Assembly: GCA_033763455.1 (NCBI GenBank)
Contig: JANRKO010000050.1
Coordinates: 1 to 64,000 of the forward strand
Source: Polyangiaceae bacterium
GTDB lineage: Bacteria; Myxococcota_A; Polyangia; Polyangiales; Polyangiaceae
Direction of reading: 5' to 3'
DNA: 64,000 nucleotides
Shown here one piece after another: positions 1-18,000 of this stretch; within the stretch, counting starts at the first letter, position 1, and each line of letters opens with the position of its first letter. The position numbers are program-made.

Positions 1-3000
1 TGAGCTACTCGATGACCAGCGCTTCTCGCGCAACGTGCTCCCGTCCGAGGAACAGCTCGCCCGGGTGATGGTACGCCGTCTCAAGAGCGACCTCGTCGAC
101 GCCAAGGGCAAGAGGCTCTACCCGGTGCGCCGCCTCGAAGCGCTGAACGTCGAGTACACCGCCGAGGAGCGCGAGGCCCGACAACTTCTCGAACAGTACA
201 TCGCGAGCCGCAAGAAGCAGGACGAGCGCGAAGGCGCCGCCTCGCACTTCGTCCACCAGCTTCTCCGCAAGCGCCTCGCGTCGTCACCCGCCGCCTTCAT
301 GGCGACGCTGGCGCGGCACACAGCGACCATTGAGGGCAAGGGCGAGGCTCGCCGGGGGTCCAACCTCGACGACCGCATCCTCAGGCGCGCGATCGCCAAG
401 ACCGAAGAGGACTACGCAGACGACGACACGCGCGAAGCCGCCGAGTCCGAGGCCGTGGAAGAGGCGAGCCGTCGCCTGCGACCGCTATCGGCCGAGAACA
501 AGAAGCTCCTCGGCCGCCTGCGCTCGTGGGCCGAGCAGGCGAGCCACAAGCCCGACTCGAAGGCGGCGGCGCTCCTGCGCTGGCTCGAAGAGAACCTGCG
601 GCCCAAGGACCAATGGTCCAACGCGCGCGTCATCCTCTTCACCGAGTACCGCGCGACACAGAAGTGGCTGCACGAGATCCTCGCCAGCCACGACCTCGGT
701 GGCGAGCGTCTCGCGCTGCTCTTCGGCGGCATGGACCCGAAGGAGCGCGAGACCATCAAGGCTGCGTTCCAGGCCGATCCGCGTGAATCGCCAGTGCGCA
801 TCCTGCTCGCGACCGACGCGGCCTCGGAAGGCATCGACCTTCAGAACCACTGCAACCTGCTGATTCACGTCGAGATCCCCTACAACCCGAACGTGATGGA
901 GCAGCGCAACGGCCGCGTCGACCGTCACGGGCAGAAGCAAAGCGAAGTCGTCATCTGGCATCCCGTCGACGCGAGCGGCGGCCGCGGCGACGACATCCTC
1001 CGCGCGCTCAAGAAGCTCGACTCGATGCGCGCCGACATGGGAAGCGTGAACCCCGTCATCGCTCCGCAGCTGCCTGCGCTTCTCGAAGGCCGCCGCCGCG
1101 AGCTCGACACTGGCCTCGCCGAGAAGCGCATCGAACGCGCCAGACGTTACGTGAAGGCCGAGCGTGAGCTGCGCGAGCGCATCGCCAAGCTGCACGAACG
1201 GCTGACGACGACCCGCACAGAGCAGCACCTCACGCCCGACCGCATCGAGCGCGTGGTGCGCGTCGCGCTGGCGCTCACCGACAAGCCCGACCTCACGCCC
1301 GCGAAGCTGGCCGACCTTCCCGATGCCCGAGTGTTCCAAATGCCCGCGCTCGCGGGCTCGTGGTCGCGATGCCTCGACGGGCTCGACCACCCGTACACGA
1401 AGCGCACCCGCCCCATCACCTTCGACCACGACGCCGCCAAGGGCCGCGACGACGTGGTGCTCGTCCACCTGAACCACCCGCTCGTGCAGATGAGCCTGCG
1501 GTTGCTGCGTGCCGAGGTGTGGGCGCGCGACGACGTGAAGAAGCTGAACCGCGTTACGGTGCGCACACTGCCCGACGCGAAGCTCGACGCGCCCGCCGCC
1601 CTCGTCGTCTCGCGCCTCGTCATCACTGGTGGCAACCACCATCGCCTGCACGAGGAGCTGACGGAAGCAGGCGGCTACCTGCGCGACGCTGGCTTCAAGC
1701 GCGAGGACGGCATCACCAAGCTGCGCGACTGGCTCGACTCGTCGGCACCGGGGACCATCGACGACTCGCTCTTCGATGCCCTTCGCACGCGGTTCACGAA
1801 GCACACTGAGGCGGTCCTGAGCGCCGTCACCACGCGCTCGAGGGATCGCCTCAAGGGTCTCGGGTCCACGATCGAAGCCCGCAAGCGCAAAGAGATCGAC
1901 GAGATGACCCAGCTCCTCGACGACCTCGCCAAGAACCTTGAGGCCGAGCTGAAGCGAGAGGAGCCGAAGCAGCTCTCGCTCTTCTCCGAGGACGAACGCA
2001 CGCAGCTGCGGCGCGACAGGCTCGCACTCGAAGCGCGCCTGCGCCGCATCCCCGAGGAGCGCGAACGAGAGCGCCTCACGATCGAAGAGCGCCACACCGG
2101 CCTCGTCGACCACACGTTCCCCGTCTCGGTGATCCTCCTGGTGCCCGAGTCACTCGCCACGCGGAGGAAGCAGTGAGCGCCAAGCACGAGTGGCTGAACC
2201 TGCTCGAGGTCTCTGGCCCGTTCCTCGCGGTGCCCGTGCTCCGTGAGGTGTTCCCGCAGGGCCTCGAAGAGCTTGACTCCTCGCGCGCCAAGCGCCTGCA
2301 CAGCGCCTACGAGGAATGGCGTGACGCGGTCGATGGCGACGACGCCGACCGCGACAAGCTCCACGCCGCGTGGATTGACGAGGTGCTGCGTACGGCGCTT
2401 GAGGCTGACGACGAGTTGCTCAAGGCCGGCAAGGACGTTCCGGCGTCGATCGTCGAGCTGCCCGAACACGACACCGCGATCGCGCCCGAGCTCGTGTTCG
2501 TCGACCCGACGCATGGCGCGGCGGTGCTTGCGCCGGTTCACGTCTTCCCGCCCGACACCGACCTCTCGGCGTCGATGAAGTTCGGAGGGCTGTCGTGCTC
2601 GCCGGGCGACCGCATGGCCTTCCACCTTCGCGCGCTGAACGTGCCGTTCGGAATCGTGACGAACGGCGAGCGTTGGATGCTCGTCCACGCGCCCACCGGT
2701 GAGGTGGCGACCTTCGCGAGCTGGTACGCGCGTATCTGGGGCCAGGAGCCCGCCACGCTGCGCTCGTTCACGTCGCTGCTCGGCGTGCGCCGCTTTTTCG
2801 CGCCCGCGCAGGACCGGCTTCCGGCGCTCTTCGAGCGCTCGCTGAAGCACCAGGACGAGGTCACCGACGCCCTCGGCGATCAGGTCCGGCGCGCCATCGA
2901 GGTGTTGGTGCAGGCGCTCGACCGCGCCGACCAGGATCGCAATCGCGAGCTGCTGCGCGACGTGAAGCCTCAGGAGCTGTACGAGGCCGGGCTCACCGTG

Positions 3001-15000: not shown

Positions 15001-18000
15001 CGAGCCACGGCGGCACTCTGAACTACGACCCGACGGCCACGATGCGTCTGCGTGTTCCGTCGGCGGAGCTCTTCTCGTGGAAGGAGAAGCCCGAGCCCTT
15101 CGTTGACGGCAAGGTCCACGCGAAGGTCGCGGTGGTCGATGGCGCGCGCGCCTTCATCACGAGCGCCAACTTAACCGGTCACGCGCTCGAGAAGAACATG
15201 GAGGCCGGCGTGCTTATCAACGGTGGTCCGGTCCCAAAGACTCTGAGCGACCACCTGCAGGCGCTCATCGACGTGAGGGTCATCGACCATGTTTGAAGGC
15301 GTCCAGAGGCCATCCATTCAAGTAAGCAATCAATGCGGCCACTGCCTCCGCCCTTCGCGGAGCACACGAGCATCTATTCTACCATTCACCTTCGCCACCC
15401 CCCCCAACTTATCCCTGCCAACTTCCGATGCACGGCCGGGAGTGGAAGCTCCGCGAGCTCCTTCCGGCTACACCAGCGAACCACGCGCGGTCGCTCTGTA
15501 GCTGCCACATTTCCCCTGCGCCCTTCGTGTCCCGCCCGTACTCCGCTTCCACCAGAGGTAAGCTGTAGCGTGCAGTAATGCGCCTCTAAAGTAATCCGAT
15601 ACCGTGTAACACTATGCTTCAGCGTCGCCGCGTGCTCACCCACTTGAAGCTTGCCCCCCAGCTGTTCCCGCCCAAGCCGAACCAACGCTTCTGTCGCGGT
15701 CTCCTTGCTCTTTCGTTCAACGTTAGGAAACTGCCACATTCCCGCCCAGCGTGGCGCATCCTCGGGAACTTGATACACCAAGAATCGCCCGCGCCGTTGA
15801 ATCAGCGCCGCCACCATAGCCACCTGTGTCACGGCTTGGCGCGCTGGAAGCTCAGGTAACGTTTGAGTGAGGCCTCGTTTTCGTGCTTCGCACAGAGCAT
15901 GCAGGGGGCAGGTGAGGCACAGCGGCTTCTGTGGAGTGCACACGAGCGCCCCAAACTCCATCAACGCTTGATTGGAGTCGCGGGCGCGGCCAGGAGCGAT
16001 GAGTTGTTCGGCCAATTTCCAAATCTCACTCTTTAACGGCGCGCGTGTTGGGTCCCCACGCAAACCAAACAAACGTGTAATCACTCGGACCACGTTGCCG
16101 TCTACCAGCGGCACGGCTTGGTTGAAGGCGATGCTGGCGATGGCTCCGGCCGAATAAGGACCAATGCCGGGTAACTTCAGCAACTCTTCAACACTCTCGG
16201 GGATCGAGCCTTTATGTTCTGCCACCACGGCGCGCGCACCCGCAAGTAAACGTCGCGCGCGTGAGTAGTATCCCAGCCCCTGCCACAGCTTGAGCACGTC
16301 TGCTTCCTCAGCGGACGCAAGCTCCCGTATGTTCGGGAACCGATTGAGCCAGCGCGCGTAATACGGTCGGACCGTTTCCACTTGGGTTTGCTGGAGCATC
16401 ACTTCGCTAACCCAGATGGCGTAGGGGTCAGAAGTGCGACGCCAGGGCAGGTCCCGCCGATGTGCGGTGTACCAGCGCAAAAGCTCGGCGGCTAAGTGCG
16501 TGGGCTTTGGCGCTGAATTCTCGTTGTTTTTCGGGGAACGAGGCATGGCTTTGGGACAGAATGGCCGCTCGAGTGGGCCATCTCACCTCACCCTACGTGG
16601 CGAAGCTTGTTCCGGGGCGCGCCTCCGTGACAAGATCAAGCTTCCCCAAAGATGTCTGACATCCGCGTCTTCCCCTTAGAATCCATCCGAACTGACGGTT
16701 GGTTCGAGCGGATAGGCGACAGCATCGGAAGCTTCCAAGCCCTCTGCGATATTGTAGGCGCACACTTCTTTGCGTTCGCGATGATCACGGGGGCTCGCAT
16801 CACTGCGCTCACTGTCGATCGACGCAACCCCGATAACACAATGGTCGACTTCGCTGTCGGCGGCGACGACGCCGATAGCTTGCAGGCGGAGCCGCAGCGC
16901 CTAACGCTCGCGGAGTTCCGCAAACGCCTTGTGGGGGCGCTCATTGTGGACGACGAAGTGGGTCCCACCCCCGTTCGGCCTACGGATACCGAGGCGCTCC
17001 AACGCCATGTGGGGGTTCGGTACCTGCTGCTTGCCCCCATTTATGGTTACAGCTTGCTGGAGCTCACGGCGGGCCCCACAGGGTCGCACATCCGCGTGCT
17101 CCACGACGGCGTCGAAGAGTTGCATCCGCTCATCGCTTTTCGAGGTCGCTTGCGGGCCCACGTGCGGGAGGAGCTTTCCCGCTCCCAAAGGTCCGCGAGC
17201 GCGATTGATCTCACGCGCGTTGCGGAGGCTGAAAAAGCGGCAAGAGCTGGAGAGCACGTTCGGGTTTTGGAGCTGCTCGGCGCCTGGCCTGCACCACTCG
17301 CGATTTTTCTGCGCACGCCCGAGGGGCAGCAGCTCAGCGCCGAGACGCGCGCGACGATTGCGCGCGGGCTTGGATTGCTCGGGAGCGGCTGCATTGCACT
17401 CGACGAAGTAAATAAAGGGGAAGAAATTCTCCGGCTCGCCATCCAATACGCGGGGGATGGGCCAGAGGCGTCAGATATTTACCGGCGTTTGGGCCTTTCC
17501 ATTGTGCAAGATGGCCGCCCCGGGGAGGCAATCGGTCCGCTCCGCAGGGCTGCCAATCTCGGCTCGCCAGCCGATGCGATTTGGCCAATTCTCGCAGAGG
17601 CCTTTGCCGCACGGGGGCGGAACTTGGCTGCGCTGGCCGCAGCTCTAGAGGGACAAGCGGGCGGGGTTCCTCCAGAACGCTTTTCAGAGGCTCGCAACCG
17701 CGCAGAGAGCGCACTCGGGGAGCCACTTAAGGCGTGGAATGAGCTCGTTTCAAAGCTTGCGAAGCCCGCCAATTAAAACCGGCCGAGAGGGGATAGGCGC
17801 ATTGACACCGGCCGCGCGCGGGGACTAGATACGAGCGCGTTTTTACGGAAATTCCAAAGGTTTCGCTCACATGTCACTCGTAGACCTCTACTTGCCGATG
17901 GCGATCATGTTCGTGATTGCCATCGCGATTTGTTCGGGGATGTTTTTTGGTGGTCAGCTGGTTGGCCCGAAAAATCCAACTCCTGAAAAGATGATGCCGT

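What a model noticed while it worked through the whole genome (the two positions that open the first line are those of the whole stretch)
1..15296. Class 1 DISARM carrying a conserved GHKL-ATPase + PF20553 gene pair that follows DNA methylases
A complete class 1 DISARM system (drmD, drmMI, drmA, drmB, drmC; drmD starts on C46, preceded by a C5 methylase) holds two extra genes between drmMI and drmA: a GHKL/MORC-like ATPase (C50:6255-7673) and a PF20553 protein (C50:7679-8671). The pair is a fixed unit found across many phyla, mostly at this same spot in DISARM. Outside DISARM it lies beside a C5 DNA methylase. It is therefore a methylation-linked module that has not been assigned to DISARM.
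Evidence so far: - PADLOC recognises the five Drm proteins and gives no hit for the two inserts. NCBIfam gives none either. - HATPase_c_3 matches at E 5.7e-10. PF20553 matches at E 1e-80. - DrmC was found by reading the frames. The DrmD N-terminus and the Dcm gene lie on C46. - In 115 public loci the pair is adjacent in 95 of 95, DrmMI is upstream in 70 of 79 and DrmA is downstream in 75 of 82. Identity is coupled within the pair (r 0.80) and not with DrmA (r 0.02-0.27). - In 4 of 4 non-DISARM loci a C5 methylase lies upstream, twice with Vsr between. - Phage PfAC20 has a distant pair followed by a cytosine methylase. - The Microvirga plasmid has the same gene order. - Both proteins match PHROG families over [...]
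(Added by a program. Inside this text positions count along the whole contig: contig position 1 is position 1 of the stretch shown here. "Call 12" and the like, gene names such as g00115 and contig names such as C1 are that model's own, and its searches are not shown. The text may have been shortened before it was handed on; [...] marks where a part breaks off. The agent that wrote the report below was given it as the finding of a first reader that could run no searches.)

Follow-up and report, generated by a model that had tools for sequence, protein, structure and literature searches.

The report
Methylase-linked ATPase pair inside DISARM
Two extra genes sitting inside this anti-phage DISARM operon (a MORC-like ATPase and a methyltransferase-shaped partner) are the fixed core of a widespread, uncharacterised mobile cassette that travels with a cytosine DNA methylase and only in one sub-lineage lives inside DISARM.

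Summary
Window 1-15,296 holds drmD (C-terminal 724 aa), drmMI, drmA, drmB and drmC. A 473-aa GHKL ATPase (6255-7676) and a 331-aa PF20553 protein (7679-8674) are translationally coupled between drmMI and drmA.

The ATPase models as a MORC-like GHKL+S5 module. PF20553 models as a class I SAM-methyltransferase fold with an apparently intact SAM site.

In 187 public loci found through PF20553 alone, the ATPase is the upstream neighbour wherever sequence exists. A C5 cytosine methylase accompanies the pair in:
- 41 of 41 determinable DISARM loci;
- 23 of 25 non-DISARM genome loci;
- 49 of 52 determinable non-DISARM metagenome loci.

The pair is methylase-linked and unassigned. But "mostly inside DISARM" is a sampling effect: all deep branches of the pair's tree are stand-alone methylase cassettes on prophages, Tn7-like elements and islands. 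The drmMI|drmA junction also carries unrelated cargo in other DISARM systems.

Close relatives of the methylase carry DUF262+HEPN nuclease modules or other paraMORC ATPases in the pair's place. So the pair most likely fills the restriction/effector half of an R-M-like module, by an unknown mechanism.

The general theme is in print; this cassette is not. This scan has already noted it in four other genomes.

The parts
2..2176 (+). drmD, C-terminal 724 aa of the SNF2-like helicase. The N-terminus is on contig C46.
   Evidence: NF038317, 818 bits (cut-off 610), profile positions 298-1020. PADLOC DrmD, E 3e-261. 337-nt overlap with the end of C46 at 95.5% identity.
2173..6258 (+). drmMI, N6-adenine methyltransferase of the MmeI/Eco57I type (1361 aa).
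   Evidence: PADLOC DrmMI, 1585 bits. Pfam MmeI_Mtase, Eco57I and MmeI_TRD.
6255..7676 (+). MORC/paraMORC-like GHKL+S5 ATPase (473 aa) with a conserved C-terminal extension. First gene of the inserted pair.
   Evidence: HATPase_c_3, E 5.7e-10. phrog_20521, E 3.5e-134. Invariant D33xxD36N37xxD40G, D71xxG74G75, G104xxG107xG109, G165T166 and S5 lysine K332 in 29 sequences. AF2 pLDDT 82. Best structural matches are MORC3 (Z 19.6, 293 aa), SMCHD1 (18.9), MORC2 (18.7) and MutL (15.7).
7679..8674 (+). PF20553 (Methyltransf_35) protein (331 aa) with a class I SAM-methyltransferase fold. Second gene of the pair.
   Evidence: PF20553, E 9.7e-81. phrog_19983, E 2.2e-66. AF2 pLDDT 93, pTM 0.90. Fold matches are RsmD-like 3p9n (Z 14.6), METTL16 (14.2), Trm1 (13.5) and RlmJ (12.6), plus Foldseek Trm1, E 2.3e-7. 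Invariant G44, D110, K15, R19, W108 and near-invariant E67 in 78 sequences.
8690..12697 (+). drmA, the DISARM helicase (1335 aa).
   Evidence: NF038325, 1461 bits (cut-off 950). PADLOC DrmA, 1531 bits.
12694..14535 (+). drmB (DUF1998/MZB, 613 aa).
   Evidence: NF038324, 731 bits (cut-off 240). Pfam MZB.
14535..15296 (+). drmC, PLD-family nuclease (253 aa).
   Evidence: NF038319, 250 bits (cut-off 133). PADLOC DrmC model positions 1-253. The ATG at 14535 overlaps the drmB TGA.

Best explanation
The window carries a class 1 DISARM operon interleaved with a second, separable module. That module has three genes:
- a particular subfamily of C5 cytosine methyltransferase, here upstream of drmD on contig C46 (the 'drmMII' of some class 1 DISARM systems);
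- a MORC-like GHKL+S5 ATPase;
- a PF20553 protein with a SAM-methyltransferase fold.

Shown:
- The ATPase and PF20553 are an invariant, translationally coupled pair.
- The pair almost always has the methylase next to it.
- The cassette is mobile: it sits on prophages, Tn7-like elements, integrase islands and a plasmid.
- Its ancestral and commonest state is stand-alone.
- One shallow sub-lineage is embedded in DISARM.

Inferred (about 40-45%): the cassette is an R-M-like self/non-self module.
- The methylase writes 5mC on a fixed motif, since its target-recognition half is its best-conserved part.
- The ATPase-PF20553 pair fills the restriction/effector slot. Close relatives of the same methylase carry a DUF262 NTPase plus HEPN nuclease, or another paraMORC ATPase, in that place.
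- The MORC-like ATPase would dimerise on ATP and clamp or loop DNA that lacks the mark. PF20553 would act as the SAM-dependent reader or effector.
- The DNA would then be blocked or passed to nucleases and helicases: Vsr, HNH or HEPN partners when stand-alone, and DrmD, DrmAB and DrmC here.

In this operon the module would add a second (5mC) self-mark and a second sensor to DISARM.
For: Pair fixed:
- 80 of 80 genome loci, 28 of 28 viral loci and 78 of 78 metagenome loci. All were found through PF20553 alone.
- Identity-to-window r = 0.97 within the pair (n = 78), against 0.36 and 0.29 with DrmA.

Methylase link:
- 41 of 41 DISARM genome loci that reach beyond drmD; 13 further loci are cut.
- 23 of 25 non-DISARM genome loci; the other 2 end at contig ends.
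- 27 of 29 viral loci.
- 49 of 52 determinable non-DISARM metagenome loci.
- Pair-less class 1 DISARM has a C5 methylase nearby in only 2 of 9. Fisher p = 2e-6 on 41/41 against the 2 of 8 plasmids, uncorrected for kinship.

Stand-alone state is ancestral:
- All deep branches of the pair tree are stand-alone, with at least 7 context changes.
- In L006 a pair 89% identical to the window's sits after drmC, beside its own methylase.

Mobility and defence context:
- Integrases, Tn7 genes and a Mu-like prophage are neighbours.
- It lies in the accessory region of Pf phage PfAC20, where sister Pf phages carry Gabija, IetAS, Avs or TA systems (passages of PMC11878078).

Displacement:
- Methylases 46-54% identical (56-61% in the C-terminal/TRD half) are partnered by GmrSD_N + HEPN_MAE_28990, or by other HATPase_c_3 proteins.

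Other support:
- The methylase TRD half is more conserved than its catalytic half.
- The ATPase motifs and the S5 lysine are intact, and the fold is MORC-like.
- PF20553 keeps a GxGG loop, E67 and D110.
- Iyer 2008 proposed R-M roles for paraMORCs found with Dcm, Vsr and SNF2 helicases (passages of PMC2292703).
Against: - Neither protein has a recognisable nuclease domain. Many cassettes contain only the three genes, so no effector chemistry is shown.
- PF20553's conserved SAM-site residues fit an active methyltransferase at least as well as a sensor.
- Three loci with at least 2.5 kb on both sides hold the pair without any methylase (L163, L164, L167).
- Within DISARM loci the methylase's identity tracks DrmA/DrmD (r 0.55) better than the ATPase (r 0.21).
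- The split arrangement (methylase upstream of drmD, pair downstream of drmMI) is stably inherited. That could mean real integration with DISARM.
- Many viral loci are near-identical, so counts are not independent events.
- No experiment, no methylome data and no complex prediction are in hand.
Confidence: 0.5

Rival explanations
1. The pair is a true accessory subunit of this DISARM variant. For example, it may be a loader or regulator for DrmAB, DrmD or DrmMI, and it works only with them here.
For: - The same slot is kept in 52 of 54 DISARM genome loci from many phyla, with DrmA 44-93% identical to the window's.
- The genes are translationally coupled to drmMI, and drmA follows PF20553 after 15 nt with its own RBS.
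- L118 has the pair plus Vsr beside a PLD-SNF2 helicase and an Eco57I/MmeI-like methylase, without drmABC.
- MORC genes beside SNF2 helicases are a printed theme (PMC2292703).
Against: - The deep branches of the pair family are all outside DISARM.
- Pair identity is decoupled from DrmA, DrmB and DrmD. Pairs about 90% identical sit in DISARM systems only 45-56% identical (L006, L007).
- The slot holds unrelated cargo in other class 1 systems.
- Only 1 of 102 plasmids with DrmA has PF20553.
- The Serratia class 1 system was active as six named genes (passages of bioRxiv 10.1101/2021.12.28.474362). Whether the native Serratia locus holds the pair was not seen.
Confidence: 0.2
2. PF20553 is an active second nucleic-acid methyltransferase that the ATPase loads or gates. 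The cassette would then be a double-modification (or anti-restriction) module, not a restriction module.
For: - Class I fold with the glycine loop, E67 at the end of strand 2 and invariant D110 at the end of strand 4.
- The nearest folds are base N-methyltransferases of RNA: RsmD-like, METTL16, Trm1 and RlmJ.
- Pfam and PGAP call it a (putative) O-methyltransferase.
Against: - There is no (D/N)PP(Y/F) or PCQ catalytic motif.
- There is no variable target-recognition region: the family is uniform in length, about 330 aa.
- Relatives of the methylase carry nuclease modules in the same slot.
- Activity is untested.
Confidence: 0.2
3. The pair is a dedicated helper of very-short-patch repair. It would be a MutL-like partner for Vsr that limits 5mC-to-T mutation caused by the linked methylase.
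For: - Vsr is present in 10 of 26 examined loci without canonical DISARM order and in many DISARM loci, including Microvirga.
- MutL stimulates Vsr in E. coli, as cited in PMC2292703.
Against: - Most cassettes have no Vsr.
- Vsr accompanies C5 methylases in general.
- Location in defence hot spots and displacement by nuclease modules do not fit a repair helper.
Confidence: 0.07
4. The two genes are passive cargo: an unrelated mobile module that landed in a permissive junction, with no bearing on DISARM or on methylation.
For: - The drmMI|drmA junction is a cargo slot.
- The pair's GC (about 63%) is below that of drmA/drmD (67-69%).
Against: - A methylase co-occurs with the pair in nearly all determinable loci.
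- The interleaved block is conserved across at least 41 species-level genomes.
- Both reading frames are intact and highly conserved: the ATPase is 77-93% identical in the 120 best hits.
Confidence: 0.03

Closest known systems
paraMORC/MORC GHKL ATPases of prokaryotic R-M neighbourhoods (Iyer, Abhiman & Aravind 2008, PMC2292703; passages read)
   Same: - GHKL+S5 ATPase with intact motifs and a conserved C-terminal extension.
- Neighbours are C5 methylases, Vsr, HNH and SNF2 helicases.
- A second paraMORC gene is present in the four-gene variants.
- The description of 'paraMORC1' fits the window's ATPase.
   Different: - The passages read mention no SAM-methyltransferase-fold partner and no DISARM.
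- Membership in paraMORC1 could not be tested, because no reference sequences were available: the one supplement held is 189 characters and has no hit.
HEF_HK (GHKL) + Response_reg_2 pairs beside C5 methylase and Vsr (Bellieny-Rabelo et al. 2021, PMC8011034; passages read)
   Same: - Same architecture: C5 methylase, then a HATPase_c_3 ATPase, then a small alpha/beta partner, then often Vsr.
- Also mobile and R-M linked.
   Different: - Neither window protein matches PF19191 or PF19192.
- The partner here has a methyltransferase fold, not a receiver-like domain.
- The ATPase has no histidine-kinase part.
Class 1 DISARM with drmMII (Ofir 2018, recalled and not read; Serratia sp. SCBI system, bioRxiv 10.1101/2021.12.28.474362, passages read)
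   Same: drmD-drmMI-drmA-drmB-drmC plus an extra C5 methylase.
   Different: - The published system is described as six genes.
- The ATPase and PF20553 are not named as components.
- In this clade the 'drmMII' belongs with the pair.
DUF262 (GmrSD_N) + HEPN_MAE_28990 + C5 methylase operons (Anantharaman et al. 2013, PMC3710099; passages read)
   Same: - The same methylase subfamily (46-54% identity).
- An NTPase-plus-effector gene pair in the equivalent position.
   Different: The effector there is a recognisable HEPN nuclease. Here no nuclease fold is seen.
Eukaryotic MORC ATPases (MORC3 5ix1, MORC2 5of9)
   Same: - Best structural match of the ATPase (Z 19.6 and 18.7).
- Both are tied to DNA cytosine methylation.
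   Different: - About 20% identity.
- No CW or coiled-coil domains.
- The functional parallel is a lead only.

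Membership tests
Class 1 DISARM | SNF2-like helicase DrmD | tested here: met
   NF038317, 818 bits against cut-off 610, on the C-terminal 724 aa. 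The N-terminal 458 aa is on C46. The join is inferred from a 337-nt overlap at 95.5% identity.
Class 1 DISARM | N6-adenine methylase DrmMI | tested here: met
   PADLOC DrmMI, 1585 bits. Pfam Eco57I, MmeI_Mtase and N6_Mtase.
Class 1 DISARM | Core triplet DrmA (helicase), DrmB (DUF1998) and DrmC (PLD) | tested here: met
   NF038325 at 1461 bits, NF038324 at 731 bits and NF038319 at 250 bits. All are over their cut-offs.
Class 1 DISARM | Anti-phage activity and methylation-dependent self-protection | not testable with these tools
MORC/paraMORC GHKL+S5 ATPase | Bergerat-fold ATP-binding motifs I-IV | tested here: met
   N37, D71xxGG, G104xxGxG and G165T166 are invariant in 29 sequences. The position of the usual catalytic Glu holds an invariant Asp (D33).
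MORC/paraMORC GHKL+S5 ATPase | S5-fold transducer domain with conserved lysine | tested here: met
   The model aligns over residues 7-376 to MORC3, MORC2, SMCHD1 and MutL. K332 in TTTKR is invariant.
paraMORC1 (Iyer 2008) | Sequence membership in that family | not testable with these tools
   No member sequences could be obtained. Only the verbal description matches: intact motifs, a C-terminal extension, and Dcm and HNH neighbours.
Class I SAM-dependent methyltransferase (PF20553) | Seven-stranded Rossmann-like fold and Pfam membership | tested here: met
   PF20553, 272 bits against cut-off 27. AF2 pLDDT 93. Z 12-14.6 to many methyltransferases.
Class I SAM-dependent methyltransferase (PF20553) | SAM-binding glycine loop and acidic residue after strand 2 | tested here: met
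   Y40-x-G42-x-G44-G45 and E67 are conserved in 78 sequences. The assignment is by position in the model's strands, not by a ligand-bound structure.
Class I SAM-dependent methyltransferase (PF20553) | Methyl-transfer activity and its substrate | not testable with these tools
   There is no (D/N)PP(Y/F) or PCQ motif. An invariant D110-Y/F follows strand 4.
Classical type II R-M system | A recognisable restriction endonuclease beside the methylase | tested here: not met
   No nuclease family or fold was found in either protein. HNH_2 is present in only 2 of the 26 loci without canonical DISARM order that were examined.
HEF_HK / Response_reg_2 module | Pfam PF19191 and PF19192 matches | tested here: not met
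   Pfam scan at E <= 0.01 lists only HATPase_c_3, HATPase_c and PF20553.
Any named defence system in PADLOC-DB 2.0 | Model hit for the two inserts | tested here: not met
   0 families for each at E <= 0.01.

The most novel reading that the evidence does not exclude
The three-gene cassette may be a nuclease-free form of restriction. It would be a bacterial counterpart of the eukaryotic link between MORC proteins and cytosine methylation.
- A MORC-like clamp would compact or trap DNA that lacks the cassette's 5mC mark.
- Its methyltransferase-fold partner would act as the effector or reader. It could write a blocking methyl lesion or a second mark on unprotected DNA, or it could probe the target base.
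- Invading DNA would thus be silenced or stalled rather than cut.
- DISARM would have captured this module as a second sensing arm.
Probability: 0.15. Interest if true: 0.85.

Novelty: new variant of a known kind. Interest (0 to 1): 0.6.

Why it matters
- PF20553 is a large family: 1522 clusters at 50% identity with E <= 0.001. It has no tested function, and its obligate partner is the closest bacterial look-alike of eukaryotic MORC ATPases.
- Both are tied to a cytosine methylase and sit where mobile elements keep defence genes.
- If the cassette is a defence system, it is missed by current annotation. PADLOC saw only an 'incomplete' methylase in phage PfAC20 (PMC11878078).
- It would also explain the optional 'drmMII' of class 1 DISARM as part of a separate co-opted module.
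- It offers a simple bacterial system for asking how a MORC-type ATPase reads DNA methylation.

Tried and rejected
Complex prediction:
The queue was full, or the machine gave no answer, every time. Binding of the two proteins therefore remains an inference from coupling and co-inheritance.

Searches that failed or had to be redone:
- The first homologue search for PF20553 timed out. I used the representative search instead.
- The 78-sequence alignment was too diverse for a locus scan. A 12-sequence alignment was used, which biases the genome loci towards close relatives. I countered this with a viral scan and a metagenome scan seeded from a distant clade.

Searches that returned nothing useful:
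- Sequence search of solved structures: only weak Hsp90/GRP94 hits for the ATPase, and nothing meaningful for PF20553.
- The protein atlas returned only PF20553 clusters and unnamed, largely viral clusters.

Literature:
- Ofir 2018 could not be read.
- Literature searches for this cassette found no paper that names PF20553 or describes the pair. Subscription-only papers and bioRxiv supplements were not searchable.

Survey of pair-less DISARM:
- A survey of 401 genomes of one order for DrmD gave a single true class 1 DISARM, without the pair and without a C5 methylase in the 20 kb fetched. This approach was too sparse to extend.

Ideas rejected:
- I considered that the pair's position reflects a DISARM-specific role. 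I rejected this as the main reading because of the tree and the cargo-slot evidence.
- I considered a Vsr-helper role and ranked it low.

Full report
**What is in the window**

On the + strand, ORFs run head to tail from base 2 to 15,296. The curated models name them as follows.
- DrmD, C-terminal 724 aa: NF038317, 818 bits against a cut-off of 610.
- DrmMI: PADLOC, 1585 bits.
- DrmA: NF038325, 1461 bits.
- DrmB: NF038324, 731 bits.
- DrmC: NF038319, 250 bits.

Two further genes lie between drmMI and drmA.
- A 473-aa protein at 6255-7676 matches HATPase_c_3 (E 5.7e-10).
- A 331-aa protein at 7679-8674 matches PF20553 'Methyltransf_35' (E 9.7e-81).
- Neither has any PADLOC or NCBIfam hit. Both match a PHROG family end to end.

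The junctions are those of a single operon.
- ATGA is shared at drmMI/ATPase.
- 2 nt separate the ATPase stop from the PF20553 start.
- 15 nt containing GAGAGGAG precede drmA.
- TGATG is shared at drmB/drmC.
- No promoter-like site was found, and there is no excess of terminator-like sites.

The block has 63-68% GC, against 58-61% in the rest of the window. This fits a horizontally acquired island.

The DrmD N-terminus and a C5 methylase (PF00145, E 1.8e-48) lie at the end of contig C46 of the same assembly. The overlap with the window start is 337 nt at 95.5% identity. The join is therefore probable, and related genomes show the same gene order, but it is not proven.

**What the two proteins are**

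The ATPase:
- In 29 sequences from 37 to 92% identity, it keeps all Bergerat motifs (D33xxD36N37xxD40G, D71xxGG, GxxGxG, GT). It also keeps the transducer lysine (K332 in TTTKR) and a conserved C-terminal extension.
- Its model (pLDDT 82) aligns over residues 7-376 best to MORC3 (Z 19.6, 293 residues). Next come SMCHD1 (18.9), GRP94 (18.9), MORC2 (18.7), topoisomerase VI-B (17.2) and MutL (15.7).
- It is therefore a MORC/paraMORC-like GHKL+S5 ATPase.

PF20553:
- It models with very high confidence (pLDDT 93, pTM 0.90) as a seven-stranded class I SAM-methyltransferase fold.
- The best matches are nucleic-acid base methyltransferases: RsmD-like (Z 14.6), METTL16 (14.2), Trm1 (13.5) and RlmJ (12.6), plus Foldseek Trm1 at E 2.3e-7.
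- Across 78 diverse members the glycine loop (Y40-x-G-x-G44-G), E67 after strand 2 and D110 after strand 4 are kept. So are K15, R19, R75, W108, Y236 and E285.
- There is no DPPY-type or PCQ motif.
- No nuclease fold was seen in either protein.

**How the pair is distributed**

PF20553 is a large family: 1522 clusters at 50% identity with E <= 0.001. I sampled its neighbourhoods through PF20553 alone, in three ways.

(i) Species-representative genomes.
- 189 relatives were found and the best 80 kept.
- The ATPase lies immediately upstream in 80 of 80; one of these is a 2-kb contig with only the end of the ATPase.
- 54 loci are in DISARM, 25 are not, and 1 is too short to tell.

(ii) Viral contigs.
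- 29 loci were found, mostly at 27-34% identity and many nearly identical to each other.
- The ATPase is adjacent in 28 of 28 that have upstream sequence.

(iii) Metagenome contigs, seeded with a distant clade.
- 340 relatives were found and 80 kept.
- The ATPase is adjacent in 78 of 78 that have upstream sequence.
- 16 loci are in DISARM and 64 are not.

Identity to the window correlates at r = 0.97 within the pair. For comparison, DrmA-DrmB gives 0.97 and DrmA-DrmD gives 0.99. The pair against DrmA gives only 0.36 and 0.29. Pairs about 90% identical to the window's sit in DISARM systems whose DrmA is only 45-56% identical (L006, L007).

**The third gene**

A C5 cytosine methylase accompanies the pair almost everywhere.
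- DISARM genome loci: it lies upstream of drmD, often followed by Vsr, or in a few loci elsewhere (downstream in L006, L017 and L061). This holds in 41 of 41 loci that extend beyond drmD. The other 13 have fewer than 500 nt there.
- Non-DISARM genome loci: Pfam finds PF00145 within three genes in 23 of 25. The other two end at contig ends.
- Viral loci: 27 of 29.
- Non-DISARM metagenome loci: 49 have it adjacent, 3 lack it despite at least 2.5 kb on both sides (L163, L164, L167, which sit among CHAT, Trypco1, AAA and vWA genes), and 12 cannot be judged.
- Vsr is present in 10 of the 26 loci without canonical DISARM order that were examined, and HNH_2 in 2.
- A four-gene variant adds a second HATPase_c_3 protein, sometimes with a Ymh-type HEPN domain. 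It occurs on Tn7-like elements among other places. PMC3710099 likens such paraMORC-HEPN fusions in R-M neighbourhoods to PrrC and RloC.
- Phage PfAC20 carries ATPase, PF20553 and methylase at the end of its genome. Its describers saw only an 'incomplete' methylase there, in the accessory region where sister Pf phages hold Gabija, IetAS, Avs or TA systems (PMC11878078, passages).
- The Microvirga plasmid has HTH, methylase, Vsr, drmD, drmMI, 'ATP-binding protein', 'O-methyltransferase', drmA, drmB and drmC.

**Is it a DISARM part?**

A FastTree of the concatenated pair was built with 107 rows and a midpoint root used for drawing only.
- Every deep branch is a stand-alone cassette.
- The 56 DISARM rows fall in a shallow sub-tree.
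- At least 7 changes of context are needed, 5 of them forced by well-supported branches.

Class 1 DISARM without the pair is common.
- Of 102 plasmids with DrmA, only the Microvirga plasmid has PF20553.
- In 8 such plasmids inspected, the drmMI|drmA junction is empty in 3. In the other 5 it holds unrelated genes: a PIN pair, XisH/XisI, XRE regulators, a PLD protein and YfbU.
- A C5 methylase is nearby in only 2 of these 8, and none was seen beside one chromosomal system.
- One of the two, in Deinococcus, has Vsr, a methylase and a different 664-aa HATPase_c_3 protein.

In this clade, therefore, the optional 'drmMII' of class 1 DISARM belongs with the pair. The junction is a cargo slot, and embedding in DISARM is a derived state.

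Some evidence points the other way. The interleaved block is stably inherited across many phyla. Within DISARM loci the methylase's identity follows DrmA (r 0.55) more than the ATPase (r 0.21). Functional integration in this sub-lineage therefore stays possible.

**What it may do**

The cassette's methylases form one subfamily. Their C-terminal half, which holds the target-recognition region, is more conserved than the catalytic half. This suggests a fixed target motif.

Plasmid relatives of this methylase are 46-54% identical overall and 56-61% in the C-terminal half. They carry other modules in the pair's place:
- a DUF262/GmrSD_N NTPase plus a HEPN_MAE_28990 nuclease (Klebsiella, Phaeobacter);
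- a 437-aa HATPase_c_3 protein (Burkholderia glumae);
- a 665-aa HATPase_c_3 protein plus an unknown 273-aa protein (Rhizobium acidisoli).

This displacement, the mobile and defence-hot-spot locations, and the printed proposal that paraMORCs act in R-M systems (PMC2292703) make an R-M-like module the best reading. The methylase would mark self. The ATPase-PF20553 pair would be the restriction/effector half. DISARM would have co-opted it as a second mark and sensor.

The steps from 'occupies the effector slot' onwards are inferred. No nuclease is present, PF20553 looks like a working enzyme, and nothing has been tested. Rival readings are a true DISARM accessory, a second methyltransferase, a Vsr helper and passive cargo. 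They are scored in their own section.

**Novelty**

The theme of GHKL ATPases beside Dcm, Vsr and helicases is in print: Iyer 2008; Bellieny-Rabelo 2021 for an analogous GHKL + receiver-like pair; Anantharaman 2013.

Seven full-text searches found no paper that names PF20553 or describes this pair, alone or in DISARM. Ofir 2018 and bioRxiv supplements could not be read, so a mention there cannot be excluded.

This scan has already reported the same cassette on four other genomes (e1-1168029, e1-1168028, e1-365723, e1-2137208). My independent counts agree with those notes. One of them supplied the displacement lead that I tested.

I rate it a new variant of a known kind, with interest 0.6.

Noticed in passing
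window 15386-16546 (-): A MutY-like gene (HhH-GPD, NUDIX_4, FeS cluster loop) lies right after drmC. It also hits a PADLOC 'type II nicking endonuclease' model at E 1e-38. It is probably the housekeeping glycosylase that marks the island's edge, where GC drops from about 66% to about 59%.
   Followed up: no
own genome, contig C81:9687-10838 (L002): The same assembly holds a second C5 cytosine methylase (PF00145, E 3e-45). Its neighbourhood was not examined.
   Followed up: no
L085, L087, L088, L119, L121 (class 1 DISARM plasmids): The drmMI|drmA junction of class 1 DISARM is a recurrent cargo slot. It holds a PIN-domain pair, YfbU with two unknown genes, XRE regulators, XisH/XisI, or a PLD protein.
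   Followed up: partly
L118:1-9784: A viral contig holds the pair followed by Vsr, a PLD-SNF2 helicase fusion and an Eco57I/MmeI-like methylase, with no drmABC. This is a drmD/drmMI-like pairing in another form.
   Followed up: partly
L078, L079, L082, L122, L130, L156, L180 and others: A four-gene variant runs ATPase, PF20553, C5 methylase and a second HATPase_c_3 protein of 550-616 aa, sometimes with a Hypoth_Ymh (HEPN) domain. In L078 and L156 it is cargo of a Tn7-like element.
   Followed up: partly
L163, L164/L166, L167: Here the pair has no methylase within at least 2.5 kb. It sits among CHAT proteases, Trypco1, MoxR-like AAA, AAA_35, vWA and HigB genes.
   Followed up: partly
L233, L234 (Klebsiella and Phaeobacter plasmids): The same methylase subfamily forms a three-gene unit with GmrSD_N (DUF262) and a HEPN_MAE_28990 nuclease. 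Annotation suggests the same in three more plasmids.
   Followed up: partly
L116:7998-8991; L069: PF20553 is split into two frames in one prophage copy (L116). Both genes of the pair are truncated in one MAG (L069). This may be inactivation or sequencing error.
   Followed up: no
window 5001-8000: The 3' part of drmMI and the pair have lower GC (61-64%) than drmD, drmA and drmB (66-69%). This hints at a mosaic origin within the operon.
   Followed up: no
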